In this document: in pieces, positions 16,059 to 59,804 of the stretch
Layout: the number at the start of each line of letters is the position of its first letter
Numbering within the stretch: the first letter of the stretch is position 1
NCBI GenBank assembly: GCA_964035575.1
Contig: OZ037845.1
Location: 1,364,001 to 1,428,000, forward strand
Direction: 5' to 3'
Source of the DNA: Rhynchopus sp. YZ270_cl-10
Taxonomy: Eukaryota
DNA: 64,000 bases
Program-made: the position numbers and the translations under genes
Notes under the pieces: generated by a model
The model's database searches: none
The model's input: only the letters and a program-made list of their open reading frames with translations
What the model was told of the DNA's origin: nothing

Positions 16059-16494
16059 GTGGGGTGTCCCGGGGGTACCACACCAACACCCACCTACACA
16101 CACTTTCACACCATTTCACCCCATTTCACCCCATTACGCCCATTACACATGAATTACAACGCCTTGTTGTTTTGGTCTTTACTAAAGGGATGTGCGGACG
16201 ACACCAAAAAATTGAATTTTTTTGCGAATATTTGCATACAATGCAACGAGCCGACCCCCTTTTATGCACCGAAATCCCTATACGTTACTGTATAAAGACC
16301 CGTGGAGCCACTTTAAATTGACTTCTACTCCACAAAAGTGGTCGATTTTTTTTTTTATGGTGAAAAGCGGGGAGCTCGGAAATTCACTGCCGCTGGTTTT
16401 CAGGGGGGGAAAATTACATGTCACACACCCACCTCACCGAGAGCCAAAACAGAAATACGCTCGCCTTGAAATTTTTTTCTGGATTTTTTTTTTT

Positions 16495-19400
16495 ATTCCT
16501 ACAAGCGTAGCTTAAAGGAGAAATAGTTCCTCAGATACGGTCGCCAATCACCCCTCAAACAGGGTAATTGAGCAATCAACGAAAAATATTTATTACAATC
16601 AACTATGTTCATTATGGAGTTCTGCTTGGATAGCGCGCGACTCGCTTATGATGCGGTCGTAGAAGGTTGGGATCGTTTTGTGTTTGTACGTGCGAGAGGA
16701 TGAAGATACGGCTTTGGTGGGTTTGGACGATGGTGACCTGCGGGAGAGTTTTCGGACAAAAACAGAAGATATGGTCTAAGAAAATAAATTGAGTGAACAC
16801 TGTGCAAGACCTCAAATTATGTGAGGAGATACACGAATGAAAATAAAGACAAACAAAAAAATGATAAACAGTGCAAAGGGCTCACCGCCGGCTGACCACC
16901 ATATCAGCGAAAAGGGAGTCGCACCAGAGAATTATGTGCAACCGTCGGCCTAGGTAGGTAACGGTATGAAAGACCCAAAAAAACGACGGCTTGCCACGCG
17001 GTGAAGTCGTGAAGGGCACAAAGAAATTGGTAGGTAACGGTATGAAAGACCCAAAAAACGACGACTTGCCACGCGGTGAAGTCGTGAAGGGCACAAAGAA
17101 ATTGGCGGCTTACCACGCGGTGAAGTCGGAAAAGTCAACAACCACGGGGGAAAGACGGGAAGACACAACGACAAAAAGACGACTTACCACGCGGTGAAGT
17201 CGGAAAAGGCAACAAAAAGAGAACAAAATAAGGGGAAAACGGGAATATGGGAGAGGTGTCAGACGACGAGTTCAACAAGGATTTCGAGACGCTGCGTTTA
17301 GAGGGCATTCCGTATGTTTTTTGGACAGGGTTTTTAGAGAGTGACATGTGGGACGAGCTGGTGAAGACAGTCGCGCCTAACTGTGGACAATCTTTGGGTG
17401 GTTTCATTTTGAACTGGTGTCGGAACCGGGCACGCGTACGCCAGCTTTGATAATGCCGTGTGTGTAGCCGTCGCTCGCGAGCCGCACAGCTTTGCGCTAA
17501 CTGAGGTCAACAAAAGCAACGAAGGTTTTGTGGAGGAGAAGAAGCCGAACGTCGAAAAGGCAAGCCAACGAAGGAGCGGGACCAACACGATGACAACACG
17601 GTAACACACGAATAGTACAGCAGTACCCATACCGGTGCGGAGAGCACACCATCATGCTGCTGCGTTTCCGAGCACATACTTTAGCGTTTCGTTTTGAAGC
17701 ACATGAGAAGCAGTTAAACCACCATGCACCGTGCGACCTCCGGAAGGCAGCGCCGGAGTTTTGTGTTTGCAGAATTTCAGACCTCGGTTTTGGAAGGAAG
17801 CAAGGCCACGTTAGATGACAGACATGATGATCATTTTCTGCCTGCCGCCGTCGCAGTAAAGTTGCGCAACCGTGATCAGGGTCAACACCAGGCACGAGTT
17901 TCAGCGTCACCGCACCTTCACAAAGACGTAGAGTCGCGCATACTCACCACCCACACGTTGTGCGCGAAGACAGGTGCCTCAGAATAAAGGGGGAGAGACA
18001 TGAAAATAGAAATGATGTACGAATGGGATATATAATAAACGGTGCACAGGGCTGATAAGAAGACCGCGGTGTGCGTTTTGTGGAAGGCTGGTGCAGGGAC
18101 TGGTGTTTTGCAGGCTGTGATACCCTGTCGTGCCTAGGGAGCTTTTTGCAGTTTATACGGACCAAAACAATTATAAGAACGATGCGTAGGGGGATTCAAT
18201 GCAAAGAAAAGGAGGATGGAGTTGAGAAGGGTTGAGAATCAGAGTGTTGCAGTTTAAAGGGAAGGAAACGACACTAGCAAAACATTGAGAGTATACCGGT
18301 TCTGCTGAAGATAACAACAGTTTATGCTAAGGGTAACAACAGTTTATGCTGAAGGTTAATACAGGTTAGGCTGAAGGTAACAACAGTTTATGTTAAAGGT
18401 TAATACAGGTTATGCTGAAGGTAACTACAGGTTATCCTGAAGATAACATCAGTTTATGCTGAAGGTAAATACAGGTTATGCTAAAGATTAGTACAGGTTA
18501 TGCTGAAGATAACAAACAGAATGTACAGGTATGCTGAAGAGGCAGAATGAATACAAAGAAGAAGGGGAAGACCACGTTGTGGAGTCTATGGGATCCAGAC
18601 GGAGGCAGAATAATGTAACGCAGTGAACGAGCAGCTGGAACATGCAGTGGTTTCTTCTTTCGTGGGCAGCAGCGCAGCGTGGGGAGGAGACTGGAAGAGC
18701 TCCGAGACGAGAGGTGGTGGAAGCAACCGGAGAAGAGGGATCGTGGAAGGGCCACATGCATGCTGAAGGAACCCAGAGGAGTTTAACGGCTAAACGGGGA
18801 TTCGAGACCCACCGTGGGTGTGCACAAGAAAAACATGGGTTTGCTGATTCGTCTCTGCTGGTACGCAGCCGCTAGGTAGGAGATGCCCACGATGCCGGAG
18901 GTGATCAGTATGTCTAGGGAAAAATGGGTGGCGATGACGGATGACGAGCGCCTTTTTTGCAATTCCTTCTGGATAAAGAAGACATGCGGAACACGATGAA
19001 GTTGGGCGGTGAGAGGGGCATCAAGATGCGCATAGATACTTATCCTTCCGATGGTTGGGAGCTTGCCCCTGCAGGAGTGCAAACGCGCAACGATGGTTTT
19101 TGCCGGTGCTGACAGTGTACGCGGAGGTTGTGGAGAGATGCAACGTCGTTAATTTGGAGTTGAAATGTGACCCTCTGGTTTGGTACACCCCTGCAGCAGT
19201 TTGATGTTCTTGGCGTTTACACTTCGGCCTATAAACCGGGAGATACCGCATGTCTGAATGGTAGAGAGACATACTGCTCTCCTCCCACCAGCAAGGGTAC
19301 ACTGTCGGAAGATGTACCTGAGGGGGTTTTTGATAGGGTGTGTTGTCCTATGTCGGGTCTGCGTTAGGGAGGAGTTTGGATGAGGACGAATCGTTTGTGG

Positions 19401-20147
19401 GATACGGAGCTGCTTGCTTTCTGGGATCACGAGTGTTGTAGAGTCGGGCTGGAGGTCCCTTAAGAAAAATGTTACGAACCGATTCCATCCCAACTGAGAG
19501 AAGAAAAGTCTGAACGGACGCGAGTTTTTCGAACACGGGGATGCATCGTATGCAGGTGGACAATGCGGATGTGTCGCAGCTATTAACAAAGGTCAGTCCC
19601 AGTGTTTTCTTCCGGTGTGCGTTTTCGGCGTGTGAAGTAATAGGGGATGACAGGCATGGTAGAATGGGTCCCAACAGGAGAGCTGCGGGTCTGACACGAG
19701 GTGAATGGAGCCCCGAGCTGATCGAGAACAGACAAGGCGACGAAGGTCGACCAGGTGCGGGGCAGCATGTCGGCACTCATGTCAGCGCAATGGGCCGCGT
19801 GTAACGAATGTTTTTGGGTTAGTTAAGTGATCTCTGCGTTATTAGGACGCGTCAGTGTATTTGTTCAGTGAATCGTTGGCCCATCTTTAGTTTAAAGTAG
19901 ACCTCTGCTAATCGGAGGGATTTTGTGGTTCAGCTCTATGAGCAGTCCCTAGGGGGTTTGGGTGCAATCAACGAAAAAACCTTTTTTCCTTTTACTTACC
20001 TATCAGAGTTACTATTTTTATTCCTACAAGCGTAGCTTAAAGGAGAAATAGTTCCTCAGATACGGTCGCCAATCACCCCTCAAACAGGGTAATTGAGCAA
20101 TCAACGAAAAAACCTTTTTTCCTTTTACTTACCTATCAGAGTTACTA
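16495..20147 (+). mobile_element. Decayed split-direct-repeat YR retrotransposon (PAT/Ngaro/VIPER/TATE-type architecture)
   Basis: A1 16495-16586; B1 19964-20014; T5; A2 20020-20111; B2 20097-20147; inserted in a T run with no TSD; frameshifted RT/RNaseH remnants inside. Confidence 0.85.
19035..19705 (+). pseudogene. Frameshifted RT-RNaseH remnant homologous to the intact ORF at 51642-53546
   Basis: QVDNA/VAAINKGQS, VEWVPT../GLTRG, FDVLGV and VVERCNVVNLELK match QVDNAAAVAAINKGHS, WVDT..FTRG, FCALGL and FLRRAERVGAELN. Confidence 0.75.
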
Positions 20148-20263
20148 TTTTTTTTGGATCCGGCCGTTTCGAAACGTTCAATTGCGGGGTCGGACGATCA
20201 AAAATATGCATCTCACATTTCTGAGTGCAAAATATGAAAAAGTATACGGAGAACCATGGAATG

Positions 20264-33528: not shown

Positions 33529-33947
33529 AGGAAAAATTCTGGACTGTTATATTATCAATATAGGTGGAGATTTTGCAACTGATTGGCAAAAAGAGCGATT
33601 CGCTTCGTCCAAATTCGGGCAGGGGGAAAAAAAGCAGTCAAATTAAAAAGTTAGACAAACAGAGTGGACGCATTATCTTAGCACACATCAATTTATTTTT
33701 TGTTGCAATGTGCTGTTTCGCTAACCCCTCCATCTTTTATTCTCATCCTCTGTACAGTGGAAGACGTACACAAATAAAACAGAGTATCAAAAGAAAAACT
33801 GAATCCGATCATTATTTATACACCAATTTTTTTCACTGTCACGAGAGGGCTTTGTATTTCAAAAAAATCAAAATTATACCCCCAACAAACGCACCCTTCC
33901 CCCTCTCACGTTAGGATCCACTTCAAAAGGCAAAAAAAACTATAAAA

Positions 33948-41700: not shown

Positions 41701-42689
41701 TGTCCGCTGATGTACGGTGAGGTGTGATGCATTTTTTTTTTTTTAAAAACTTCTCTTTAGTTATTTAGATGACTAATCACAGAGAGGTTTAGGTTCATTT
41801 TATGAACTTCTCTTTAGTTTCGCCTGCTACACATTTTTGTCGATGACTCAAAATTAAACCCCCCCCCCCTCATTGTTTTAGTTTGGAATTTCCACTCCTT
41901 TTCACCCCCCTTTTAAAAATAGCTGATGCGATTTGCAAGGATTTTTGAAGATTTGAGCTCCCCCCCTTTTGTTGTCTACAACACTAATAAAAAACAGAGC
42001 ACAAAGCATTTTCAAACTACCCCTTTTTTTGTTGTTTTTGTATGACTATGCACAGTGCTGTATTTTCATATATTTCAAGCTTTCCTTTTTTGTTCTTTTT
42101 TGTTCTTTTTTGTTCTCTTTTTTTTTACAACAAAACATAATCCAGACGTGTGTACCCCTTTTTCTTTTTTTCTGTGCTGTATTTCATTGGTCCCCCCCTC
42201 CCCCAGCGAAGTCCACAGATTATGGGAGCTGGCATATATACCTCCAGCCGGTTCCCTCTCCCGAACACTCTAGGCATACACTCGATGCGAGTCGCATGCG
42301 AGAATCATTATCGCACTATCGTACACCATTCTTGCACCATTATCGCATGCGATAATCATTATCGCTCACGTAGAAGGATTTTTGGTCGTGCGAGAGTGAG
42401 CGATAATTGTGCGATAATTTTTCGCCAGACCAGAATTGTGCGAGGATGCGAGAATGCGACTCTCATCGGGGTGTATGTCTAGGGGAGGGTTCGATAACCC
42501 CACGGAGTGTCAGTGCTCTGCGTCCCAGAGGCGTTTTGCACTGTCAACTTTACTCTACTTTTTTTTTTGTGTGAAAAATCGTCTTATGTCTAGATGTATG
42601 TGGGGAAGAAAAAAAAACTTTCCCACACACAGCACCATGATACTCTTTACCTTTCCCCATATCCATCCCCCCGATTCCCCCCCCCCCTA

Positions 42690-43886
42690 GGGCCAGCGAC
42701 TCCGCCGTTTTAACGTGGGAGCCAATGTCGCTTTAACCTGTTACGGTACTTCTGGCCATTTCCAGGCCACCTCTGGTCGGAAAACCCCCCAGAACTGGGT
42801 CAGAAACACCCTGTGACCCGAAAATTCATGATTAGGGCGACCCAGAATATGCTAAAATGCGAAAAAATAGTGAAAAAGTGGCTTTTTGACGGTTTTGGCC
42901 ATGTTGGGTAAAATGGCCATTTTTTGAGAAAAAAACCAAAAAAACAGCAAAATTTCGACATCATGACGGCTGCTTGGGCACAAAACTACCCCAGGGATGT
43001 CCCGTGAGTCCATTCCGACCTGTTTTGGACACTTTCGGTACTTTTTTTGGCCGTTTTTTGGTGTTTTTGTGGTAAAAAACGTCCTATGATAGTCCTATAC
43101 TAATCGCAAGACGCCATTTGTCCCACAGTCTGGGCCAATATGGGGGCCCACAAATGGGTAAAAACCCCCGAAAAAGCACTCCAGGAACCCAGATAGTTCC
43201 AAATATCCACCAGACACCCACCCAAACACCGCAGAAACACCACAGAAAATCGTCTTGAAAAACACACTTTTTTCAAAAAGGTCATTATGGAGCCTGTCTG
43301 ACAACCTTTTTGAAAAAAGTGTGTTTTTTAAGACAACTTTCTGTGGTGTTTCTGCGGTGTTTGGGTGGGTGTCTGGTGGATATTTGGAACTATCTGGGTT
43401 CCTGGAGTGCTTTTTCGGGGGTTTTTACCCATTTGTGGGCCCCCATATTGGCCCAGACTGTGGGACAAATGGCGTCTTGCGATTAGTATAGGACTATCAT
43501 AGGACGTTTTTTACCACAAAAACACCAAAAAACGGCCAAAAAAAGTACCGAAAGTGTCCAAAACAGGTCGGAATGGACTCACGGGACATCCCTGGGGTAG
43601 TTTTGTGCCCAAGCAGCCGTCATGATGTCGAAATTTTGCTGTTTTTTTGGTTTTTTTCTCAAAAAATGGCCATTTTACCCAACATGGCCAAAACCGTCAA
43701 AAAGCCACTTTTTCACTATTTTTTCGCATTTTAGCATATTCTGGGTCGCCCTAATCATGAATTTTCGGGTCACAGGGTGTTTCTGACCCAGTTCTGGGGG
43801 GTTTTCCGACCAGAGGTGGCTTGGAAATGGCCAGAAATGCCGTAACAGGTTAAAGCGACACAATTTTACTAGGGAGTCGCTCCCCC
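42690..43886. mobile_element. TA-flanked foldback element (~570-bp internal inverted arms); inverted copy at 47675-48871
   Basis: Self-complementary around ~43290; termini GGGCCAGCGACTCC / GGAGTCGCTCCCCC. Confidence 0.85.
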
Positions 43887-44087
43887 TACCCCCCCCCTAG
43901 GCATACATAGCGTGCGAACGGCTCATTCGCATCATTCGCATCCTGTTCGCATTGGGTATTCGCATCCTGTTCGCATTGGCCAATGCGAACAGGATGCGAA
44001 TGACATACGAATAACATTTATTATGGGGTGGCGACAGGCAAGTTCTCATTTTTTGGTCAATTTCCGCACTACACAGTACACACAATA

Positions 44088-44646
44088 CACAGTATACACA
44101 GTATACACAGTATACACAGTATACACAGTATACACAGTATACACAGTATACACAGTATACACAGTATACACAGTATACACAGTATACACAGTATACACAG
44201 TATACACAGTATACACAGTATACACAGTATACACAGTATACACAGTATACACAGTATACACAGTATACACAGTATACACAGTATACACAGTATACACAGT
44301 ATACACAGTATACACAGTATACACAGTATACACAGTATACACAGTATACACAGTATACACAGTATACACAGTATACACAGTATACACAGTATACACAGTA
44401 TACACAGTATACACAGTATACACAGTATACACAGTATACACAGTATACACAGTATACACAGTATACACAGTATACACAGTATACACAGTATACACAGTAT
44501 ACACAGTATACACAGTATACACAGTATACACAGTATACACAGTATACACAGTATACACAGTATACACAGTATACACAGTACACACAGAATACACAGTATA
44601 CACAGTATACACAGTATACACAGTGTACACAGTATACACAGTATAC
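44088..44646. repeat. (TACACAGTA)n nonamer satellite, ~62 units
   Basis: Tandem repeat. Confidence 0.98.
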
Positions 44647-45048
44647 CATAGCTGATAAGCTAATAAAGCCTAATAGGATATTAGCCTATTTAAGCCTTAT
44701 AGAATAGGCTAATGAAACTGGAATAGGCTAATATTTTATTAGCCTATTCCAGTCCTTCCCAGCTACCACTGGTGGTACGGTGGTAGCTGGCTTAACCCGT
44801 TAAACAAATCCGAAAAATCCAAAATTTAAGGCCAACTCCGTTACAGACACAACACAACTTATTTCTCTTGTGTTTTTCACTGATGAGCGTGAGTGAGGTG
44901 TATGTTACAGCACCGACTGCAGCCTACGTCTAAGATGGCATATAATAGGCTATTAGCCCAATATTAGCCTATTATAAGACATACTGTGGGTGTTATAACG
45001 TTATCGATAACGTTATAACAAGTGTTATTTTGGAATAACGTTATTCAG

Positions 45049-46214
45049 CAGTACAGTACAGTACAGTACAGTACAGTACAGTACAGTACAGTACAGTACA
45101 GTACAGTACAGTACAGTACAGTACAGTACAGTACAGTACAGTACAGTACAGTACAGTACAGTACAGTACAGTACAGTACAGTACAGTACAGTACAGTACA
45201 GTACAGTACAGTACAGTACAGTACAGTACAGTACAGTACAGTACAGTACAGTACAGTACAGTACAGTACAGTACAGTACAGTACAGTACAGTACAGTACA
45301 GTACAGTACAGTACAGTACAGTACAGTACAGTACAGTACAGTACAGTACAGTACAGTACAGTACAGTACAGTACAGTACAGTACAGTACAGTACAGTACA
45401 GTACAGTACAGTACAGTACAGTACAGTACAGTACAGTACAGTACAGTACAGTACAGTACAGTACAGTACAGTACAGTACAGTACAGTACAGTACAGTACA
45501 GTACAGTACAGTACAGTACAGTACAGTACAGTACAGTACAGTACAGTACAGTACAGTACAGTACAGTACAGTACAGTACAGTACAGTACAGTACAGTACA
45601 GTACAGTACAGTACAGTACAGTACAGTACAGTACAGTACAGTACAGTACAGTACAGTACAGTACAGTACAGTACAGTACAGTACAGTACAGTACAGTACA
45701 GTACAGTACAGTACAGTACAGTACAGTACAGTACAGTACAGTACAGTACAGTACAGTACAGTACAGTACAGTACAGTACAGTACAGTACAGTACAGTACA
45801 GTACAGTACAGTACAGTACAGTACAGTACAGTACAGTACAGTACAGTACAGTACAGTACAGTACAGTACAGTACAGTACAGTACAGTACAGTACAGTACA
45901 GTACAGTACAGTACAGTACAGTACAGTACAGTACAGTACAGTACAGTACAGTACAGTACAGTACAGTACAGTACAGTACAGTACAGTACAGTACAGTACA
46001 GTACAGTACAGTACAGTACAGTACAGTACAGTACAGTACAGTACAGTACAGTACAGTACAGTACAGTACAGTACAGTACAGTACAGTACAGTACAGTACA
46101 GTACAGTACAGTACAGTACAGTACAGTACAGTACAGTACAGTACAGTACAGTACAGTACAGTACAGTACAGTACAGTACAGTACAGTACAGTACAGTACA
46201 GTACAGTACAGTAC
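45049..46214. repeat. (CAGTA)n pentamer satellite, ~233 units
   Basis: Perfect tandem repeat. Confidence 0.98.
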
Positions 46215-46546
46215 CCCTGCTAACGACCCACCCAGAGTGGGACAAAAAAAGCTCATCCCAAAATATGCCGATCACAAAAAAATCACAAAAAACCCCGATA
46301 ATCCAACAATCACACACCCACAGAATTCACACACTACTATAACATTCGCACTACGTTCGCATCATTCGCACTATGTTCGCACTGTGTTCGCATCGTTCGC
46401 ATCATTCGCACATGCGAATATAGTGCGAATATAGTGCGAATGATGCGAATGATGCGAACGACAATGCGAATGAATGCGAACAGGATGCGAATGCATTCGC
46501 ACATGCGAATATATGCGAATGGTCATTCGCACGCTATGTATGCCTA

Positions 46547-47661
46547 GGGGGAGCCACGTATAAGGAAATCCTTAAGGATTTGCTGTCCGAAACCCATTTT
46601 TTTGAAATTTGGGTGAAGAAACCCACTAAAACGGGCGTACCTGGCCGCAAATCGCCCTGGGGATCACCCATATATCCCAATAAACCACCTGACGACCTTC
46701 ACAGAGCATTTCTTGTCTCAAAAAAATCGATTTTTTGTGAAAAAACACCCCAAAATTGCGTAACGCTTGCGTAACGCTTAGTGACCAAAATTTAGCACTT
46801 GCCAAGAAATTTCTCCAATCAGACAAAAATCCTTCTAAACACCCGAAAAACACCTCAGTCCACATCCGCTGGGGTCCCAGGGTGGAAATGTATAGTTTTT
46901 GCAGCTTTTAGGGGTCCTGGGAGGGTCCCAGGCGTATTCATGAGGGACGGAACCGCTTATAATGCCCGAAATTACCTCTTTTTTAGGGTGCTTTTTCACC
47001 TTAAAAATTCAAAAAAAAGTGCTCAGACAATCCACAAAATACCCCATTTTGGGACAAGTGGGACAAAAGTGGGACACGGGGTTATTTTGGGCAAAATAGC
47101 CCAAAAAGTGATCGCAAATATGATTCCCCACCCCGCAGGGGGCCTGGCGAGTAGTTCCGAGGGGGTTTTTACACTTCTGTGATTGTCTGAGCACTTTTTT
47201 TTGAATTTTTAAGGTGAAAAAGCACCCTAAAAAAGAGGTAATTTCGGGCATTATAAGCGGTTCCGTCCCTCATGAATACGCCTGGGACCCTCCCAGGACC
47301 CCTAAAAGCTGCAAAAACTATACATTTCCACCCTGGGACCCCAGCGGATGTGGACTGAGGTGTTGGTGTTTAGAAGGATTTTTGTCTGATTGGAGAAATT
47401 TCTTGGCAAGTGCTAAATTTTGGTCACTAAGCGTTACGCAAGCGTTACGCAATTTTGGGGTGTTTTTTCACAAAAAATCGATTTTTTTGAGACAAGAAAT
47501 GCTCTGTGAAGGTCGTCAGGTGGTTTATTGGGATATATGGGTGATCCCCAGGGCGATTTGCGGCCAGGTACGCCCGTTTTAGTGGGTTTCTTCACCCAAA
47601 TTTCAAAAAAATGGGTTTCGGACAGCAAATCCTTAAGGATTTCCTTATACGTGGCTCCCCC
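46547..47661. mobile_element. TA-flanked foldback element (~490-bp inverted arms), termini GGGGGAGCCACGTATAAGG
   Basis: Arms ~46547-47035 and ~47178-47661 are reverse complements. Confidence 0.88.
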
Positions 47662-50470
47662 TAGGGGGGGGGTAGGGGGAGCGACTCCCTAGTAAAATTG
47701 TGTCGCTTTAACCTGTTACGGCATTTCTGGCCATTTCCAAGCCACCTCTGGTCGGAAAACCCCCCAGAACTGGGTCAGAAACACCCTGTGACCCGAAAAT
47801 TCATGATTAGGGCGACCCAGAATATGCTAAAATGCGAAAAAATAGTGAAAAAGTGGCTTTTTGACGGTTTTGGCCATGTTGGGTAAAATGGCCATTTTTT
47901 GAGAAAAAAACCAAAAAAACAGCAAAATTTCGACATCATGACGGCTGCTTGGGCACAAAACTACCCCAGGGATGTCCCGTGAGTCCATTCCGACCTGTTT
48001 TGGACACTTTCGGTACTTTTTTTGGCCGTTTTTTGGTGTTTTTGTGGTAAAAAACGTCCTATGATAGTCCTATACTAATCGCAAGACGCCATTTGTCCCA
48101 CAGTCTGGGCCAATATGGGGGCCCACAAATGGGTAAAAACCCCCGAAAAAGCACTCCAGGAACCCAGATAGTTCCAAATATCCACCAGACACCCACCCAA
48201 ACACCGCAGAAACACCACAGAAAGTTGTCTTAAAAAACACACTTTTTTCAAAAAGGTTGTCAGACAGGCTCCATAATGACCTTTTTGAAAAAAGTGTGTT
48301 TTTCAAGACGATTTTCTGTGGTGTTTCTGCGGTGTTTGGGTGGGTGTCTGGTGGATATTTGGAACTATCTGGGTTCCTGGAGTGCTTTTTCGGGGGTTTT
48401 TACCCATTTGTGGGCCCCCATATTGGCCCAGACTGTGGGACAAATGGCGTCTTGCGATTAGTATAGGACTATCATAGGACGTTTTTTACCACAAAAACAC
48501 CAAAAAACGGCCAAAAAAAGTACCGAAAGTGTCCAAAACAGGTCGGAATGGACTCACGGGACATCCCTGGGGTAGTTTTGTGCCCAAGCAGCCGTCATGA
48601 TGTCGAAATTTTGCTGTTTTTTTGGTTTTTTTCTCAAAAAATGGCCATTTTACCCAACATGGCCAAAACCGTCAAAAAGCCACTTTTTCACTATTTTTTC
48701 GCATTTTAGCATATTCTGGGTCGCCCTAATCATGAATTTTCGGGTCACAGGGTGTTTCTGACCCAGTTCTGGGGGGTTTTCCGACCAGAGGTGGCCTGGA
48801 AATGGCCAGAAGTACCGTAACAGGTTAAAGCGACATTGGCTCCCACGTTAAAACGGCGGAGTCGCTGGCCCTAGGGGGGGGGGGAATCGGGGGGATGGAT
48901 ATGGGGAAAGGTAAAGAGTATCATGGTGCTGTGTGTGGGAAAGTTTTTTTTTCTTCCCCACATACATCTAGACATAAGACGATTTTTCACACAAAAAAAA
49001 AAGTAGAGTAAAGTTGACAGTGCAAAACGCCTCTGGGACGCAGAGCACTGACACTCCGTGGGGTTATCGAACCCTCCCCTAGACATACACCCCGATGAGA
49101 GTCGCATTCTCGCATCCTCGCACAATTCTGGTCTGGCGAAAAATTATCGCACAATTATCGCTCACTCTCGCACGACCAAAAATCCTTCTACGTGAGCGAT
49201 AATGATTATCGCATGCGATAATGGTGCAAGAATGGTGTACGATAGTGCGATAATGATTCTCGCATGCGACTCGCATCGAGTGTATGCCTAGAGTGTTCGG
49301 GAGAGGGAACCGGCTGGAGGTATATATGCCAGCTCCCATAATCTGTGGACTTCGCTGGGGGAGGGGGGGACCAATGAAATACAGCACAGAAAAAAAGAAA
49401 AAGGGGTACACACGTCTGGATTATGTTTTGTTGTAAAAAAAAAGAGAACAAAAAAGAACAAAACTAAACATAACATTATACCAACTGATCTGTCTTTACT
49501 ACTCTACTACTATGTCTTTTTTCGTTGACCGCAGCCATTTAGGCTCTTTGCCTATGACGCACATGATAATGGATGAGGGGGAGGATTCAAAAGGAAAAAG
49601 CGTAAAGACAGATCTATCGTTGGTTTTAAATATGTTTAGTTTCCAATCACACTTCGTGTGTGCAAAAACTAAACATAACATTATACCAACTGATCTGTCT
49701 TTACTACTCTACTACTATGTCTTTTTTCGTTGACCGCAGCATGACCCAAAGGGACCGCGCAGCGGAATAGTAGCATAGTACGGAGTTAAACGGGGAAGAA
49801 AAAAGGGGGGAAACGGTAGGAAAAGAAAGAAAAACGGTAAACACAGCACCGAGCAAGCCAGCACTCACAGAAAGAAATCGTGTTGATATCCATTCGCCGT
49901 CTCGAAGACAGTGGATAAGGGGGGGCCGTAAGCGCAAGGAGTGCCAAGCATAGTCAGCACACCCCATACAGGGGGACACATTTCAAACAAAAATAAAAGC
50001 GCATGGTGCACGAAGCAGAGTCAGTACCATCAAACGGGAGAGCAAAAAATATGAAAACGGTGTCAGTGATAAGCAGGGACTACAAAAACCAGCACGGGCG
50101 GACCCACCACCGAAACGACAATCTGGACCCACCACCGAAACGACAATCTTCCGCGAGAGTCGCCTCTCCAAACTACTGGGCAGCGGACGTTCGTGAAGCA
50201 GGGAGGCGTGGTACTAAAACATGTCCTCAACCGCGTATAGCGGGGCTCGTGGCCATCAGAACAACCCGCCCTTGGCAGGAAAATACCATGTACACAACGC
50301 AAGAAAACAGAACGCGCACGCACAATACGAGGACAAGCTCCTCAAAGAAAAACCAGTCGTCCCGCGACAGGCCCACACAGACCACCATTGAACCCTAGGT
50401 GATGAAAAAATAAAACAAACACTAAACACTCCTACGACGCACTGTGAGCGGGAAGGCAAACAATAAAATG

Positions 50471-51625
50471 CATGGGGCACTAAGCATAGTCAGCACGCAC
50501 CAGCGATGAAATGTTGATGAACAAGAAACACCCCTTCGTCGCTCCTCGAGCAGGAAGGTAAAATAAAATGCATGGGGCACCAAGCAGAGTCAGCACGCAC
50601 CAGCGATAAAGTGTTGATGAACATTGACACCCCTTCAGGGGAAAAAGTAAAAAGCACAAGGGGCACCAAGCAGAGTCAGCACGCTCCAAGCGAGAAAATG
50701 ATAACAATAACAAAACCCTTCGTCGCTCCGTGAGCGGGAAGGTAAAATAAAATGCATGGGGCACCAAGCAGAGTCAGCACGCACCAGCGATAAAGTGTTG
50801 ATGAACAATAAATACCCCTTCAGGGGAAAAGGTAAAAAGTACATGGGGCACTAAGCAGAGTCAGTACGCACCAGCGATAAAAGGTTGATGAACAATAAAC
50901 ACCCCTTCGTCGCTCCACGAGCAGGAAGGTAAAATAAAATGCATGGGGCACCAAGCAGAGTCAGCACGCACCAGCGATAAAGTGTTGATGAACAATAAAT
51001 ACCCCTTCAGGGGAAAAGGTAAAAAGTACATGGGGCACTAAGCAGAGTCAGTACGCACCAGCGATAAAATGTTGATGAACAATAAACACCCCTTCGTCGC
51101 TCCACGAGCAGGAAGGCAAAATAAAATACATGGGGCACCAAGCAGAGTCAGCACGCACCAGCGATAAAGTGTTGATGAACAATAAATACCCCTTCAGGGG
51201 AAAAGGTAAAAAGTACATGGGGCACTAAGCAGAGTCAGTACGCACCAGCGATAAAAGGTTGATGAACAATAAACACCCCTTCGTCGCTCCACGAGCAGGA
51301 AGGTAAAATAAAATGCATGGGGCACCAAGCAGAGTCAGCACGCACCAGCGATAAAGTGTAGATGAACATTGACACCCCTTCAGGGGAAAAAGTAAAAAGC
51401 ACAAGGGGCACCAAGCAGAGTCAGCACGCTCCAAGCGAGAAAATGATAACAATAACAAAACCCTTCGTCGCTCCGTGAGCGGGAAGGTAAAATAAAATGC
51501 ATGGGGCACCAAGCAGAGTCAGCACGCACCAGCGATAAAATGTTGATGAACAATAAACATCCCTTCGTCGCCCCATGGGCAAAATATAAAAACTCATGGG
51601 GCACTGAGCAAAGCCAGCACGCGCC
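50471..51625 (-). repeat. Array of 13 units of 86-100 bp (alternating ~100/87 dimer) in the 3' region of the retroelement
   Basis: Unit starts 50471, 50571, 50657, 50755, 50842, 50942, 51029, 51129, 51216, 51316, 51402, 51500, 51595. Confidence 0.92.
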
Positions 51626-51641
51626 ATAACAAACAAAACAA

Positions 51642-53546
51642 TTATTGACAAAACATTGCCTCCACACTCTCGTATACTTTGAGCACAGGGGGGAGTGACA
51701 CCATCGTGGGGGCCACCGTCCCGCGAGTGAACTCGTCAGCACGTTGACTTAAAGTGTCCACCCACGTGGCGGATACACACATGTTTGCTGCCTTTGCAGT
51801 GTCAAAAATCGCACACAGCAGCTCGTTAGCTAGATAATTCTTGCTGTGACCTTTGTTTATAGCTGCCACTGCAGCGGCGTTGTCGACCTGAAGAGACACT
51901 TCATGATTAGGGTGGTTTGCGGCCGCTAACCGAACGGCTAGCCAAGCAGCGTATAGCTCTTTCAGGTATATGTGATGTTTCTCAGGATCTGGAAACACAC
52001 CCTGAACAACAGGTTCGAAAAACTCAGATTCTATTAAAGCAGCCCACTCGCGGTCCGAGGCATCTGACCAAGTCACCACGGTGGGTCTCTCTGGTTGGTC
52101 TACAATCCAGTCATTACAACGCATCACAGACACTATGCCTGTGAATTCTGAGATAACAGATGGGGGGATAAAAAGTTGAACATCCCACTTTTGTGGGTCA
52201 ATAGCAAGTAAAGACGCGGTACGCCGCAGAAAAGAAAGAGAATCACGGTAATAACACAAATTCCGTTTGGTACAATACAAAAACCACACGAAACCTCCCA
52301 ATACTTTGTAGAAATCCCGGGCAGTGCAGTCGTCTTTCAACACCGCACTGAGAACGGGGGATTCCACACACTTCTCAATCCAGTCAGGGGCAGCACGGTA
52401 CCGTCTTGGGGAACTCGCCAAGTCAAACTCCAGGCCCAAAGCGCAAAAGTTCGTCCTAGGCACTCCCTCTCCCTCGTCGTCATTCAGCTCGGCACCGACA
52501 CGTTCAGCGCGTCGGAGGAACGAAGAGTAGCGCCTCTCTGCCTCCTGCAAGGTATTGCCCACGACAAAGAAGTTGTCCACCCAAGGTATCCCTTCATCCT
52601 CTGGCAGCAACACCATAGCCGAGCGGTGCGCGATGCACGGCGCCCAACTCCACCCCATGCACAGCACGTTGAGCTTTGCCCTCACAAAGGGTCCGCGTGC
52701 ACCTGCCAGGTTCACTCCAAAGAAATCGTCCACACCATCTGCCAGCGGAAACTGGTAAAACCAGCTCCGCCCATCAGCTTGCACCACGTACGCACTGTCC
52801 AGAAACCTCTTCACTACCTTATGTATGGAAGGTAGATACATGGGAGGGGGGTCACGCATCAGGCGGTTCAGCTTCCGACCGTCGCAGACCAGCCTCAGTC
52901 CCCGCACCTTCTTCGGCACGGTGAAGGCGGGAAGTATCACCTTCTGCTCGCCAGACCGAGACATCACACCCCACTTCTGCAGCTTCCCCCAGTGGCGCAG
53001 CATATGCCTGGAAGTCCCTCTCTTTACCGGGACTGACGACTCCAGGACTTTTCGGCCCTCCTCGGTGAGGGCTGCCGTGAAGGCTTCGGGGGACCGGATC
53101 ACGTCGAGGACTCCTGTCAGAAGACCTTGAGAGTCCATCGCCGTTAGGGCATCCAGGTCCAACCTAGCACGGGAGATCTCCGCCAGCTCCCCCTCAGCGC
53201 GTTCGGCGGGAGCAGACACAAAGCGGCGATCCAAAACAATCGTTGCCTCCCCGTACAGGAGCACAACATCAGGCCCATCGTCCTCCTCCGTCCTCCTCGG
53301 GAGCGCGGGCGGTGGTGGAGGCGCGTACATCTTCGGCGGCGCTCCGAATGTCGGGAAAGCAGGACGCAATGGTGGTGCACGCGCTCTTCTCCAGCGTCGT
53401 ACCCACACACAGGGCCTCAAGCCACACTGCAGCGGAGGGTGCGTCAGCGAGGGCCCAACTGCTCCTGCGACGCACTGCACGACGGCAACCCGTGCTCCTC
53501 CTCGTCCCCTGCCACCCCGCGCACGAGTCCTACTCCTCCGTGCCAT
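51642..53546 (-). CDS. DIRS-class reverse transcriptase-RNase H, 634 aa, with Arg/Gly-rich N-terminus
   Basis: FTVPKK..LRLVCD, DGRSWFYQ, LCMGWSWAP, WVDN, ALGLEFD; RNaseH SDAS, HIYLKELYA, VDN..AV..INKG.S, WV......ADEFTR. Confidence 0.92.
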   Translation of the reverse strand: MARRSRTRARGGRGRGGARVAVVQCVAGAVGPSLTHPPLQCGLRPCVWVRRWRRARAPPLRPAFPTFGAPPKMYAPPPPPALPRRTEEDDGPDVVLLYGEATIVLDRRFVSAPAERAEGELAEISRARLDLDALTAMDSQGLLTGVLDVIRSPEAFTAALTEEGRKVLESSVPVKRGTSRHMLRHWGKLQKWGVMSRSGEQKVILPAFTVPKKVRGLRLVCDGRKLNRLMRDPPPMYLPSIHKVVKRFLDSAYVVQADGRSWFYQFPLADGVDDFFGVNLAGARGPFVRAKLNVLCMGWSWAPCIAHRSAMVLLPEDEGIPWVDNFFVVGNTLQEAERRYSSFLRRAERVGAELNDDEGEGVPRTNFCALGLEFDLASSPRRYRAAPDWIEKCVESPVLSAVLKDDCTARDFYKVLGGFVWFLYCTKRNLCYYRDSLSFLRRTASLLAIDPQKWDVQLFIPPSVISEFTGIVSVMRCNDWIVDQPERPTVVTWSDASDREWAALIESEFFEPVVQGVFPDPEKHHIYLKELYAAWLAVRLAAANHPNHEVSLQVDNAAAVAAINKGHSKNYLANELLCAIFDTAKAANMCVSATWVDTLSQRADEFTRGTVAPTMVSLPPVLKVYESVEAMFCQ

Positions 53547-55957
53547 ATTTATTCGGTAACGAAGTTAAAAAATTTTTCGTTGACCGCAGCCATTTAGGCT
53601 CTTTGCCTATGACGCACATGATAATGGATGAGGGGGAGGATTCAAAAGGAAAAAGCGTAAAGACAGATCTATCGTTGGTTTTAAATATGTTTAGTTTCCA
53701 ATCACACTTCGTGTGTGCAAAAAAAGAACAAAAAAGGAAAGCTTGAAATATATGAAAATACAGCACTGTGCATAGTCATACAAAAACAACAAAAAAAGGG
53801 GTAGTTTGAAAATGCTTTGTGCTCTGTTTTTTATTAGTGTTGTAGACAACAAAAGGGGGGGAGCTCAAATCTTCAAAAATCCTTGCAAATCGCATCAGCT
53901 ATTTTTAAAAGGGGGGTGAAAAGGAGTGGAAATTCCAAACTAAAACAATGAGGGGGGGGGGTTTAATTTTGAGTCATCGGCAAATTGTTCGTTTGAGAGA
54001 TTGTTACCGTGTTTTAACAAATAGTGGAGCACGCTCTAGGGTGGCTACACTAATACAACCAAGTTTTCAATTAAAAAAAATAGTTTAAAAAAATGGTGGG
54101 TCAGTTGCTTATGACGCAAGTGAAAATAGTGGAGTTAGCAATACGTGTTGCCAACTGTTTTCCATCAATTTTTTTTCAAAAAAAGCTAAAAAAAAAAGTG
54201 TAGGGTGTTTGCGGTATAGCTACAAAATATGGGGGGGAACCAAATCGATTGTTTCTTCCCCCAACTCTCCTTGTCTGTGTATCTGTCGATGCATTGCGGG
54301 ACCGCTCCCTCTTCCATTTAAAAAAGAGCCCAAGGGGTTGAAACACGGTACCATAAAGATCTTAAGGAAGATATTTGTGTTTTTTCAGGATTCCTGGAAA
54401 TCCTGACACTTTGTGTTTTTTTTCTTCAGGATTTTTCAAGATCCTGACAATTTGTGTTTTTTTTTTTTTTTACCAGGGGCAGGGTTTCCGCCAGGATTTG
54501 GGGTTTCAGGAATTGGGGGGGACCATCAAAAAGACCCCCCAAAAAAATTTTTCCTCCCCGCAAAAGCGGTCGTCGCGCGCTTCGCGCGCGCCTCCCTGCA
54601 GGCCACAGAGTGGAGAGGCGAAGGGTGCACCAGGTTTGATAGCAGCCATGTCAAGCTTCACAGCTGTGTTGTCTGGTAGAGGTGGTTCGTTTGGAGGTCG
54701 GGGGTGGAAGTTAACAAGGTAAGGGGTCTTGTGAGAGTGGAGGGTGATGGTGTTTGCTTTTTCTATTGTATGGTGTTACAGTCATTACAGTGCTGCAGTG
54801 GGAACATGTAATAACTACCCGTCGCTTGCACCGAAGCCTCCTTAGAAAAAGGGGCAATGCACGGAAGTATCGATGGAAGTATATCAATATCACATAGCTA
54901 GCAACACAGCGCCGCAGGCGCACGGTACGCTACTTTTACCCTTTTTAAAAAAGATTGCACCACCCTCTTTTCTTCCACTTCTTCTGGCACAGCGAGCCAA
55001 ATGCTCTGCACGGTGGGGTCGCATGACCACGGGGGGTCATCTACAACCTCCAAAACCCCATTTTTCTTGGGGGGGACCATGGTCCCCCCCAAACCCCTGT
55101 AAAAATCCGGATTTTTCTGGGAAAAATATTGGGGGGGTCCATGGTCCCCCCCCGGTCCCCCTTGGCGGAAACCCTGAGGGGGCTTCTCTATGTTGTAGGC
55201 ATACAGAGGTACAGATTTTACAGACCGGGGCCGCAACTGGCTGGGATGTCACGAAACTGACAAAAAAAGTGGTTTTCGACCTTTTTTTTTGGCCTGCTGT
55301 ACAGTATAGTCAGGGTAGTAGCTTGAAAGGTGTACTTTTCAAATGTTGCTGGTTTAGAAAAAATTTTTCCCCGGTTGAAAGCGGTCGTCGCGCGCTTCGC
55401 GCGCGACTCCCTGACAACCACTAAGTGGAGAGGCAAAGGGTAAATTTTACGAGACAACAAAGAAAATGGAATATAATCCTGTGTTTACGGCGCTTGGTCT
55501 TGCACCTTCCACTAACCGTACGAAGTCAATACGTCTTCCAGAAGCAGGGGCCGTTGCAACGGTGGGTCATTTTGAAAAAATGGTCAACTTTTTGCATCTT
55601 TGATCAAGTTGCATTTGCGGCTGCAAAATGCAAGGGGATTCCCGAAGACATTGCAAACTCTATTTTTTGCGGAGCAAAAAATTAATATAAAGTGGCGCCG
55701 CAGGCGAAAAAAAAATTAGGGCATAGTGCAAAACATGCAGCTTTTTACACCACAGAGTCACTTAATGAACCCTTTTTAGGGGTTCGCTTACGTGTGAGGC
55801 TTTCTTCTGTGAGTGGGAAAGTGGTGCGGGGGAGGCGAAAAACTGAATCCCGAATCCCACTTTTTTTTTTATTTTTCCCCAAACCAGTAAACCAGCTCGT
55901 TCTGGTTTTGAAACCAGCAAAAGTACCCAAGCTATTTCCCTGGTATAGTATAGTACC

Positions 55958-56094: not shown

Positions 56095-58061
56095 GCGGAA
56101 ATTGACCAAAAAACGAGAACTTGTCCATTTCGGCAAATTGACCCCACCACTGGCCGGATGGATTCCGGAAATGCAAATGCCGGCGTTTCTAAGCAAGTTC
56201 TAAGCAAGAGAGAAAAAAAAAACACAAAAAAAAAAAAAAAACACAAATTGTCAGGATCTTGATCAGGAAGAAGAAGATTTGAGTCCGTGAAAAAAAAAAA
56301 ATCTTCTTTAAGAACTTTCTGGTACCGTGTTGAAAACGTACCAAAAAATTTTTTTTTTGAATTATTCGGAATGCTGTCTTGATTTTATTTTTATTTTATT
56401 TTTCCAACACGAAAGCGATAGTGGAAAATAGATGGGATATGTACACAGTGATTCATATCGACCTCTTGATTTTTTCTCTTGATTTTTTTTTTCTTCTTTT
56501 TTTAAAGTCTGTGCACGCACTTCACAGCCACACTTTAAAGTTTTCTGACGATTTTATTTTGTCAAATAAAGCAAACAAACTAAACTAAACTAAAGAACGA
56601 TCGAAAAATTGATGCGGGGTGGGTGGGTGGGTTATGGGGTTGGGGTAGGGGGGTGACAATACTTTATTTTCTCTTCTTTTGTGAATGAAACAATCTTCTA
56701 TTTTTCTTTTTTTTTCCCCACTTCCCAATGTTTCCCCCTCCCACCCCTATATTTTTTTTTGTCAAACACAAGGAGGCGTTTACCGGCTTTGAGCGCACAA
56801 ACAAAAGACCCGATCTTTTTTTTTTTTTTGTCAAACACAAGGAGGCGTTTAGAACCATCCTACCCACACTATTCTCTATTTCGTTTTCTTTTTCTTTTCT
56901 TTTTGGCCTCAAAGAGGCCTCTTCTTTTTGAACAATGGGCACACGGAGTGGGTCACAAAGGAGCTTCATCCTTCTGGAAGCTTCCCCCCTTCCTCTCTTC
57001 TTAGACTGCCCCCCTGTTTTGGATACGGAGTGCCTTTTGTTTTAAATAAAAAGTAATTTATTGCTTTTATCTATTCAAAAAAAATATTTATTTATCAAAA
57101 ACCCCCTCCTCTCTTCCCAGTAACTGTACAAAACCCCTTGCAATTGGTGCTATTCAGGGAGGGGTGGGGTTTCGCAACTTTTTTTTAACAACTTTTGGTA
57201 CCCCAGAAATCCAAAATACCAAGTTATGTAAGAAGTGCGCAAATATTGGGTCGTCAGGAGTATCATTTTTTTCACACTTTGCTTGACTTATGTGGGTGTG
57301 AAAAAAAGTTGTGAAAAAGTTGTGAAAACCCCGCCCCTCGTATATCACCTATACAATGCTGCTTACACAGATGAGCTGCAACATATTGCAACAGGAAAAC
57401 ACTAATGAAAAGGGGTTTTTTTAGACCCAAAAGAAGTTTTTTTTTTTGCTTTTTGTGTTAGTGCCTGCGAGGCGTTTGCATTTGAATCAACTTTTTTGAA
57501 TTCCTTTTATAAAATAAGTTTTAACCCACGGGGACACAATGGTACAAAAAGGTGAGCTTCACCGACCACCCTGGGCATTAATTGTACTAACATTATTGAG
57601 TGCTTTCTGGATTCCAAAATATATCAGCTTTTTCATTTTCCCCAAAATGATTAATTTCGGGGAAAATGTTAGAGGAAAAAAAGGCAGTGTGTGACAGGGA
57701 AGAACGATGATGGATACGGTGAATCGTGTTTGGAAAACAAACAACAAAAAAAAGACACTGTTTTTGCCTTTGCTGCAAACCCTCCACCAAACCCTATCTG
57801 AGAGACCCCCTACTAATAGCTTGCTCCTAACCCGATCATAATTCTATTGTTGCCTAACAGACACACGGAGTCGCTCTTTCCTACAAGGATGACCACGATG
57901 AAGATATATCTCATGCTGACAGGACAAAACCAAGCTGACAAAAAAAAACACTTCAACCCACAGGCTTTTACACTAAAAAAAAAACCCCCCGTTTTTTTTT
58001 GTCGAGGGTTTTTTTCTTTTCTTTCTCCCCCCCTCCCCCTCTCCCCCCCTACCCCTGCAAA

Positions 58062-59804
58062 ATGAGGGTACTGGTTGTGGCTTTGTTGTTGATGGTGAGG
58101 GAGACGAGGTGCAGGTCTTTTCGGTACACTGCACTTGGTGACTTCGGCACGGGGGCATACGATGCAGGGCAGTTTCAGGAGGTGCTTAACGCTGATGCCT
58201 TCCACGCAACCTCTGACGAGCTGGACTCCCAATTCACCTTGAGTGTTGGCGACAACATCTATGTCGGCAACACACAACAGGGAATCAAAGAATCCTTTGA
58301 AAATATGTGGGCCAAGCCTGGAGCACACCACGGAGGGCCCTGGCTGATGTGTGTCGGCAACCACGACAACGTGGGCACCCAAATCGCATACACAAAGAGC
58401 AACAAAGACTGGGTCTTCCCCGCCGCATTCTTCACAAAAACGTTTGAAACGGACCTCAACTTCTCGGTGCAGGTCTGGTCGATTAATACCCACAGCTTTG
58501 ACGGTGGACAGATGAATTGGCTGACCTCCTCTCTCGAGAAGAGTACTGCACGCTGGAAGATCTTCTTCACGCACTACCCATGGATCAGCAGTGGCCGTCA
58601 TAAGCGTGTACCCTCCCCGGTTTCTGTTGCACAGATTGCCAAGAAATACAATGTCCAGGTTGTGTTCAATGGGCACGACCATTTGGTGCAGTCTCTCGTC
58701 TCTGAAGGTGTAGCCTTCGTTGGAACCGGCGCTGTCGCCCGCGGTGCCATGCTCAACAGGAATATCGAAAAGGATAAGACCGACTTCCTCTGGGCCTTTG
58801 GTATTGGCTATCACGTAGGCTACCATGGTATCGTTCACGTCGCGTTGACGCACAACGTTATGTGGGGCATGCTTTACCACCACGAAAACCTTGTACACGA
58901 ATTTACCACAGTCCACGATTACCCCATGCGTTACAAAGACGTTGGAGGGGAACCGAAGGACACAACCTTCCCACCTCCCGACACAATTCTGAAGTACCTC
59001 AACCTCGAAGCTGATACAACAAAAGAACCAACCACCTCTGGGGCAGAACCAGCCACACCACGTACACCAGAGACTCCTACACCGACAATAGGAGGCAACA
59101 CTACGCTCGCAACAAAGGAGGACGTCAAGGCAGAGAACGACAAGCGCCTTCTCGCTACACCATCAGAAATCATTGAAACAAAAGCAAAGAGCAAGCTCAC
59201 CTATGTAGTGTCAACCACCTGCAGGAAATGCCGTGGCCCCTCTGTGAACCGCAACAGCACCCTATGGGTGCAGGGTGTAACGTACACCAATGCGCACCGC
59301 GTCTTCATTTCGTACAGTGCGTTTGACTGTACAAAGGAGGGGGCAGAAAGGGGGAGAGTGTTTGGAACTGGGTTGTACACCCCAACTACTCCTGTCATTA
59401 CGTTCCGTCCGGTGGGGGAGATTCCGGGTGGTGTTGCATCTATTCCGGCGACAGTGTGTTTCTCTGAGGACAATGGTGAGACGTTCTCTACGTTGCTCCA
59501 CGCAGCAACCGGGTTGAATTCTTTTGAGCTGTTCGCCACACCCTCAGCCGAGGAGAACGATGAGGCAGAGCTGGAGGCCTCCCTAAAAGGTGATAAGGTG
59601 GAACGTAAAGTACGTGCGAAAACCCGTTTCATCACCCTCCGCAGTGGAAGTGAGGGCATTCCGTCCAGTTGGTTCTACATTTTGGCGGCGGTTGCGGCGA
59701 TGGCGATTCCGCTTGCATGGTATGTGATTTTGAAAACACAACACAACAAAAACAAAATTCCCAAAACCCAACAGGATGCGCGGAAAGCAGAGTGTCGCCG
59801 GTAA
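58062..59804 (+). CDS. Purple/tartrate-resistant acid phosphatase-like metallophosphoesterase with signal peptide, Pro/Thr linker, extra domain and C-terminal TM helix
   Basis: GDFG, GDNIY, GNHD, HYP, GHDH motifs; MRVLVVALLL leader; WFYILAAVAAMAIPLAWYVIL. Confidence 0.88.
   Translation: MRVLVVALLLMVRETRCRSFRYTALGDFGTGAYDAGQFQEVLNADAFHATSDELDSQFTLSVGDNIYVGNTQQGIKESFENMWAKPGAHHGGPWLMCVGNHDNVGTQIAYTKSNKDWVFPAAFFTKTFETDLNFSVQVWSINTHSFDGGQMNWLTSSLEKSTARWKIFFTHYPWISSGRHKRVPSPVSVAQIAKKYNVQVVFNGHDHLVQSLVSEGVAFVGTGAVARGAMLNRNIEKDKTDFLWAFGIGYHVGYHGIVHVALTHNVMWGMLYHHENLVHEFTTVHDYPMRYKDVGGEPKDTTFPPPDTILKYLNLEADTTKEPTTSGAEPATPRTPETPTPTIGGNTTLATKEDVKAENDKRLLATPSEIIETKAKSKLTYVVSTTCRKCRGPSVNRNSTLWVQGVTYTNAHRVFISYSAFDCTKEGAERGRVFGTGLYTPTTPVITFRPVGEIPGGVASIPATVCFSEDNGETFSTLLHAATGLNSFELFATPSAEENDEAELEASLKGDKVERKVRAKTRFITLRSGSEGIPSSWFYILAAVAAMAIPLAWYVILKTQHNKNKIPKTQQDARKAECRR

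What the first reader, a model, noticed from the sequence alone, without database searches (positions are those of the whole stretch)
49451..53740. Filled and empty sites in one window show exact conservative integration
The empty site (reverse complement of ~42085-42120) reads GAAC-A6-GAAC. The internal A2/B1 junction, which mimics the circle junction, reads GTGC-A5-CTAA. The filled site has GAAC-A4-CTAA on the left and GTGC-A7-GAAC on the right: 4+7 = 6+5. No base is gained or lost and there is no TSD, as expected for YR crossover between a circular intermediate and an oligo(T/A) target. It also dates the insertion after the inverted duplication.
Basis: partly seen in the sequence, partly recalled or inferred. 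Interest (0 to 1): 0.7.

Follow-up and report, generated by a model that had tools for sequence, protein, structure and literature searches.

The report
Recombinase-less retroelement, scarless oligo(A) insertion
A young jumping gene that keeps only its copying enzyme sits in a run of A's with no base gained or lost, as an empty copy of the same spot nearby shows; it was likely stitched in by a recombinase borrowed from a relative (a known mechanism), and its end-to-end junction is predicted to fold into a long hairpin.

Summary
Left A4, internal junction A5, right A7 and empty A6 are all at the stated places. Removing the body plus 5 A restores the second arm of a 2.06-kb inverted repeat (no mismatch, one G-run indel). 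Contigs of public runs show the same 4260-base skip. The element is a 4260-bp split-direct-repeat retroelement (A1-ORF-B1-A2-B2) whose named RT relatives are from Diplonema. It has one intact RT-RNase H gene and no recombinase (YR) or gag, although close relatives carry YR. It is multicopy and young, and all listed ends lie in A-runs. Crossover through a 3-4 nt shared core without target duplication is the published model for this order, so the headline is known. Caveats: the circle and enzyme are inferred; the sum also fits a 1-4 nt A duplication; the 10-bp tandem target mimics a 10-14 nt TSD; the dating is likely, not proven. Less ordinary: a lasting RT-only lineage, a second such element in the window (also T5), and a core-anchored inverted repeat at the junction in 6 of 6 end-defined junctions, with mixed held-out results.

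The parts
49460..53725 (-). Whole element E1 with its two terminal A-runs (body 49464-53718; net insertion 4260 nt); layout A1-ORF-B1-A2-B2 on the minus strand
   Evidence: joint skipping 4260 nt in X6 and X7
53719..53725 (.). A7 run at the element's 5' end (element A plus target A)
53573..53718 (-). Repeat A1, 146 nt, identical to A2; holds a 33-of-40 pyrimidine tract followed by AG, a possible trans-splice acceptor (inferred)
51642..53546 (-). Only long ORF: 634-aa reverse transcriptase-RNase H (WVDN motif; acidic RNase H residues kept in the alignment); no gag, no YR
   Evidence: (RVT_1 E=0.028, below cut-off)
50465..51630 (.). 187-bp tandem array (5.9 copies by TRF, 50471-51566) in the non-coding 3' half
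49669..49740 (-). Repeat B1, 72 nt, identical to B2
49664..49668 (.). A5/T5 core at the B1/A2 junction (copy of the end-to-end junction)
   Evidence: bridged by an X2 contig
49602..49704 (.). Imperfect inverted repeat across the junction: inner arms 49666-49677 and 49631-49642 with a 23-nt spacer holding a small hairpin; outer arms 49692-49704 and 49602-49614
   Evidence: DNA fold z -7.5 and -8.0; integrated 5' end z +0.6
49518..49663 (-). Repeat A2; its end overlaps B2 by 18 nt (49518-49535), which holds TCAACGAAAAA on the minus strand
49464..49535 (-). Repeat B2 (3' terminus)
49460..49463 (.). A4 run at the element's 3' end
42086..42121 (-). Empty site: three-unit GAAC-A6 tandem; the middle T6 (42096-42101) is the target
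41841..43901 (.). Arm 1 of the 2.06-kb inverted repeat (empty)
47660..53979 (.). Arm 2 of the inverted repeat, interrupted by E1
16484..20155 (+). Second split-direct-repeat element E2: T11 / A1 16490-16586 ... B1 19964-20019, T5 junction 20015-20019, A2 20015-20111, B2 20097-20152 / T8; RT decayed, repeats identical, no YR

Best explanation
This is a young, multicopy split-direct-repeat retroelement with an intact RT-RNase H gene and no recombinase or gag, which was likely inserted by a tyrosine recombinase borrowed from a related element, crossing over between its T5 end-to-end junction and a T-run in the genome. Shown: the anatomy, the net-zero base count, ends in A/T-runs, the absence of YR. 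Inferred: (i) transcription from A1 to B2 and reverse transcription, with the B1/A2 copy templating the joined ends (model recalled for Ngaro/PAT; the DIRS-1 analogue was read); (ii) a closed intermediate; (iii) crossover within at most 4 shared A, since the target's A1-4 lie opposite junction A2-5; (iv) descent from a gag-YR/RT (VIPER-type) ancestor by loss of gag and YR; (v) the inverted repeat at the junction serving as recombinase site or end-joining structure; (vi) insertion after the 2-kb repeat was copied.
For: Exact sum and restored arm. Skip of 4260 nt in 2 of 4 runs. Displayed left-end loose ends sit at 3 A (X2, 1 contig), 4 A (8 contigs in 4 rows) or 5+ A (11 contigs in 3 rows); displayed right ends are A-rich (8 contigs in 4 rows); 24 rows shown, 40 hidden. 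E2 also has a T5 junction and T-run ends. The protein cluster has 7 members with 0-3 amino-acid differences on up to 24 contig records. A YR profile hits 16 of 27 related loci but not the element or the window. P0008, P0023, P0219 and P0022 can encode a YR C-terminus in the +1 frame (108-139 against a null maximum of 76.5), while P0001 (71) and sister P0194 (66) cannot. In the RT tree the window/sister pair lies in a 100/100 clade with YR-bearing rows, with the YR-bearing P0008/P0206 pair outside it. In relatives L004, L005, L011, L012 and L014 a 3-6 nt junction core also lies at the one end visible. [quoted passage not shown]
Against: No YR donor sharing these ends was found; no genome is held. 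Only one filled/empty pair exists, and ends of other copies could not be paired. Three displayed right-end contigs show only 2 A before a C or G, so the core is not always a clean A-run. Loose-end contigs may be error tips or the same insertion in several runs (X3, X4 and X6 share a study). No true VIPER/TATE sequence was in the tree. The YR status of P0004 and P0007 rests on equal contig lengths only. Circles were not amplified for DIRS-1 (PMC7192593).
Confidence: 0.75

Rival explanations
1. Same outcome, other substrate: the recombinase acts on a folded single-stranded junction, as XerC does on CTX-phi attP, and not on a double-stranded circle; the chromosomal B1/A2 copy would then be inert.
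For: The junction folds strongly and the fold is lost at the integrated end (z +0.6). A core-anchored stem is present in 6 of 6 end-defined junctions. One compensatory pair with a GNRA loop occurs between L004 and L015. DIRS-1 cDNA is mostly single-stranded (PMC7192593). CTX-phi precedent: PMC5357621, passage read.
Against: Scoring window chosen after seeing the stems. Held-out tests are mixed: L015 weak (9% of null positions as good), L002 strong but junction not independently fixed, nothing clear in L007/L008, L006, L018. Whole-region fold z is weak in L004, L011, L012. No strand preference. Inverted repeats also serve as plain double-stranded YR sites or RNA structures.
Confidence: 0.15
2. 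A linear cDNA is inserted by another nuclease, with a short (1-4 nt) duplication of A; the match with A5 is incidental.
For: Arithmetically equal to the crossover: 1-4 element A plus 4-1 duplicated A. A pure 5-A duplication is excluded because 7 exceeds 6. Chance match is about 0.12.
Against: No integrase or endonuclease ORF. All relatives with a second enzyme have YR. Non-A cores recur at ends and junctions in relatives.
Confidence: 0.06
3. The insertion made a 10-bp TSD in a two-unit allele, and the three-unit empty arm arose by slippage or as an excision footprint.
For: The filled site alone shows perfect 10-14 nt direct repeats.
Against: Both arms total three units and are otherwise identical except one G. 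Only the 4260 skip is among the 15 joints shown (8 hidden), with no 4270 skip and no 10-nt deletion row. VIPER and TATE make no TSD (PMC12278014).
Confidence: 0.04
4. Dating only: the insertion came first and was precisely excised from arm 1, or filled and empty are alleles or dispersed copies placed as an inverted pair by the assembly.
For: YR reactions are reversible (established knowledge). X6 and X7 contigs over 53951 show only the arm-1 form.
Against: It needs an extra event. The centre between the arms is not a palindrome and the outer flanks differ, unlike a fold-back read. Dropout at the G-run could hide arm 2.
Confidence: 0.15

Closest known systems
VIPER and TATE (VIPER-like YR retrotransposons of kinetoplastids; PMC6681497 abstract, sections 6-7 and passages; PMC12278014 passages)
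   Same: A1...B1A2B2 repeats with identical copies; no TSD; relatives of this RT have gag, then YR overlapping the RT start.
   Different: No gag or YR here; a 1.9-kb non-coding 3' half with a tandem array. The nearest named relatives are Diplonema proteins at 49-53%; host not identified.
SIRE of T. cruzi and TOC1/MRC1 of Chlamydomonas (non-autonomous derivatives; SIRE from PMC6681497, TOC1/MRC1 recalled)
   Same: Keep the split repeats and depend on enzymes in trans.
   Different: Those encode no protein; this one keeps an intact RT in two sister families 87% alike. The decayed E2 is closer to them.
DIRS1-like elements (PMC3266345 section 10 and passages; PMC7192593 passages)
   Same: Recombination through a short T-rich core at the circle junction without TSD; termini made of inverted repeats offset by an extension (lE 12-64 nt, rE 9-75 nt), as the junction stem here is offset by 13-26 nt.
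   Different: DIRS1 has long ITRs, an inverted ICR and often a methyltransferase; here the repeats are direct and the inverted arms are short and hidden inside A and B.
Ngaro elements (PMC8547959, PMC9210276, PMC4157794; passages)
   Same: Same repeat layout; ORF1-deleted variants exist in Cafeteria.
   Different: YR follows RT in Ngaro and precedes or overlaps it in these relatives; the Cafeteria variants lose gag but keep YR.
CTX-phi attP (PMC5357621, passage)
   Same: Analogy only: a fold present before integration and lost at the integrated end.
   Different: Bacterial XerC/D; nothing here shows single-strand use.

Membership tests
VIPER-like (autonomous) | Split direct repeats A1-[ORFs]-B1-A2-B2 | tested here: met
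   A 146 nt, B 72 nt, identical copies
VIPER-like (autonomous) | RT-RNase H ORF | tested here: met
VIPER-like (autonomous) | YR ORF overlapping the RT start | tested here: not met
   no hit; possible remnant at the ORF start ranks only 86 of 8510
VIPER-like (autonomous) | gag-like first ORF | tested here: not met
   ATG lies 26 nt after A1; X1 and X2 contigs join A1 to the ORF directly
VIPER-like (autonomous) | No target-site duplication | tested here: met
   one site; a shared core of up to 4 A cannot be told from a short duplication
VIPER-like (autonomous) | RT groups with VIPER/TATE | tested here: inconclusive
   one search had no reference VIPER/TATE; nearest named rows are D. papillatum proteins
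Ngaro | Order gag, RT/RH, YR | tested here: not met
   relatives have YR before or overlapping RT
DIRS1-like | ITRs plus inverted ICR | tested here: not met
   repeats are direct; only short hidden inverted arms
DIRS order | Circular DNA intermediate used by YR | not testable with these tools
   the circle junction equals the internal junction over 72/146 nt, so contigs cannot tell them apart
LTR or non-LTR retrotransposon | Integrase/endonuclease with LTRs or a poly(A) tail and a true TSD | tested here: not met

The most novel reading that the evidence does not exclude
Split-direct-repeat retroelements hide a DIRS1-type terminus (short inverted arms plus a 13-26 nt extension) in their junction, and this folds on single-stranded cDNA into the true recombinase substrate, as in CTX-phi. 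An RT-only lineage lives on by supplying its own reverse transcriptase and borrowing YR and Gag, a lasting division of labour within the DIRS order.
Probability: 0.17. Interest if true: 0.8.

Novelty: new variant of a known kind. Interest (0 to 1): 0.45.

Why it matters
The no-TSD crossover itself is the expected behaviour of DIRS-order elements, so this is a clean example and not a surprise. Its value lies in three things. A matched filled/empty pair fixes the register (core of at most 4 nt) for a VIPER-type element. An intact, amplifying RT-only family shows that the order can shed both gag and recombinase. A junction stem shared with relatives of 30-38% RT identity links the split-repeat and inverted-repeat DIRS types, and it offers a short defined substrate for the open question of what DNA form these recombinases integrate.

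Tried and rejected
YR remnant at the ORF start: register within one codon of that in P0008, but rank 86 of 8510 and alt-frame score within the null; not claimed. The single-motif alt-frame test was too permissive and was replaced. Strand preference of the stem from G-U pairs: none across 8 junctions. Empty site for E2 (predicted T14): not in the window. Motif copy at 1991 as a third solo element: flanked by T-runs but no stem and no second repeat; left open. Host identity from one host gene: only 30-45% hits. Rfam on 41500-54500: 0 matches. No RNA holder listed. Contig depths were not used as copy numbers. No TSD found at the outer ends of the 2-kb arms (by eye). Earlier-findings look-ups by place and sequence were blank. 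Tree: L006 and L018 were dropped by my motif filter (32 rows kept). Literature: searches and finds 85, 92, 93 showed no RT-only DIRS-order element and no junction stem in split-repeat elements. Goodwin and Poulter 2004 is not held, and I did not see the 2005 and 2015 Poulter reviews or any supplements, which may describe either.

Full report
Observation. The counts are exact: A4 at 49460-49463, A7 at 53719-53725, A5 at the internal junction 49664-49668, and T6 at 42096-42101 in the empty arm. Of 12 trial removals only body plus 5 A restores arm 1, after which the arms match over 2061/2060 nt with no mismatch and one G-run gap. The target is the middle unit of a three-unit 10-bp tandem, so the filled site alone imitates a 10-14 nt TSD; only the empty arm removes that reading. 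Among 4 runs laid, X6 and X7 show a joint skipping 4260 nt (short sides of 25-26 nt), X2 bridges the A5 with no difference, and contig ends fall at 49463 and 53720, where the filled and empty paths should fork. One run may be the window's source, so this checks accuracy, not ancestry. A 5-A match would arise by chance about 12% of the time.

Anatomy. On the minus strand the element reads A1 (146 nt), a 26-nt leader, one 634-aa ORF, 1.9 kb non-coding with a 187-bp array, then B1 (72 nt), T5, A2 and B2; the repeat copies are identical and A and B overlap by 18 nt. The ORF is an RT-RNase H: Pfam is weak (E 0.028), but 25 homologues were found, the named ones from Diplonema papillatum at 49-53%, one fused to a phage-integrase domain, and catalytic positions are kept. 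No YR is present: tblastn and phmmer and a profile from 10 related YRs found nothing in the element or the window. The same profile hit 16 of 27 related metagenome loci. X1 and X2 contigs join A1 directly to the ORF, so the loss is not peculiar to this copy.

Family. The protein cluster has 7 members differing by 0-3 residues on up to 24 contig records (some may be one gene called with two starts). A sister cluster at 87% has 6 members on up to 15 records, with the same start; its DNA was not seen. Relatives with long N-termini can encode a YR C-terminus in the +1 frame (P0008 139, P0023 139, P0219 137, P0022/P0217 108; null maximum 76.5), P0018 is marginal (84.5), and P0001, P0003/P0194 and P0015 fall within the null. 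YR proteins P0031 and P0032 share contig lengths with RTs P0007 and P0004. In a 32-row tree (L006 and L018 dropped, midpoint root, no true VIPER) the RT-only pair is nested among YR-bearing rows, so the loss is likely derived. Complete relatives show gag, then YR overlapping RT, and split repeats, the VIPER layout of PMC6681497 (sections 6-7 read).

Target rule. On the junction (24 rows shown, 40 hidden), left ends lie at 4 A (8 contigs) or 5+ A (11 contigs), plus one at 3 A. Right ends lie at 5+ A (5 contigs) or at 2 A followed by C or G and more A (3 contigs). These cannot be paired and may include repeats or error tips. A second element in the window (16484-20155) has T11, T5 and T8 and predicts an empty T14 that is not in the window. 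In relatives a 3-6 nt T-containing core lies at both the junction and the visible end.

Mechanism. With 4 A on the left, junction A2-5 lie opposite target A1-4, so the shared core is at most 4 nt. This matches the published model of crossover through a short core at the circle junction without TSD (PMC3266345 passages and section 10; PMC7192593 passages; PMC12278014 passage). The enzyme must be supplied in trans, which is reported for DIRS-1 (PMC7192593); the donor was not found, as no genome is held. The sum does not itself prove a circle, and it also fits a 1-4 nt duplication. Insertion after duplication is simplest, but precise excision is equivalent in sequence and arm 2's outer end was not seen in X6 or X7.

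Junction stem. The B end, including the core, recurs inverted 21-23 nt inside A; the region folds with z -4.3 as RNA and -7.5/-8.0 as DNA, while the integrated 5' end does not fold (z +0.6). A core-anchored stem scored high in 6 of 6 end-defined junctions (local null fractions 0-0.035; spacers 13-26 nt), but the scoring window was set after seeing them and these are only about three lineages. Held-out cases were mixed: L015 weak, L002 strong but unanchored, L007/L008, L006 and L018 unclear; L009 and L013 repeat known relatives. One compensatory pair is seen between L004 and L015, and there is no strand preference. The layout recalls DIRS1 ITRs with extensions (PMC3266345) and, as an analogy, CTX-phi attP (PMC5357621 passage).

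Verdict. The element works like a VIPER-type YR retrotransposon; it fails membership as an autonomous one (no YR, no gag) and is best called an RT-only derivative. I found neither that form nor the junction stem in ten searches, but the founding Ngaro paper was not held and the Ngaro/PAT replication model is recalled. Other papers were seen as passages only: PMC8547959, PMC4157794, PMC9210276, PMC10161547, PMC13465315. Earlier scan notes describe similar non-coding elements elsewhere and were not tested. Interest 0.45; new variant of a known kind.

Noticed in passing
window 16484-20155 (+): Second split-direct-repeat element with identical repeats, T5 junction, T11/T8 ends and a junction stem, but a decayed RT (weak hit 19117-19324; longest stop-free frame 148 aa) and no YR; probably still moved in trans.
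   Followed up: partly
window 49518-49535, 20097-20111; L005:4556-4569, L008, L009, L012: The A/B overlap carries CGAAAAA in both window elements and in several distant relatives; TCAACGAAAAA occurs 7 times in the window against 0.14 expected. Possible strand-transfer signal.
   Followed up: partly
window 1822-2214: A seventh copy of the overlap motif at 1991 lies between T-runs; may be a solo A-B unit like SIRE.
   Followed up: partly
runs X3, X6, X7 on window 49522-49741: A short-A variant joins the B end to the middle of A and keeps the part that pairs with B; several unlike sequences follow the B end, so other elements share B.
   Followed up: no
   Followed up: partly
window 42726-43860, 47701-48835, 30715-31846: 1.1-kb palindromic repeat inside each arm, with a 73-78% relative at 30.7-31.8 kb; a nested inverted repeat 46543-47032/47181-47665 and long 9-mer and 5-mer satellites lie between the arms.
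   Followed up: no
window 54019-54080: High-copy 60-bp repeat with A-rich flanks just outside arm 2.
   Followed up: no
window 3659-5176, 32035-33528, 33915-34673, 57939-59804, 60929-63595: Long uninterrupted host ORFs (DUF1308, SpoU+dsRBD, DUF84 NTPase, metallophosphoesterase, CH domain), pointing to an intron-poor protist.
   Followed up: partly
L002:3160-3220: Strong 17-bp stem with a 26-nt spacer just after the RT stop; predicts that element's junction.
   Followed up: no
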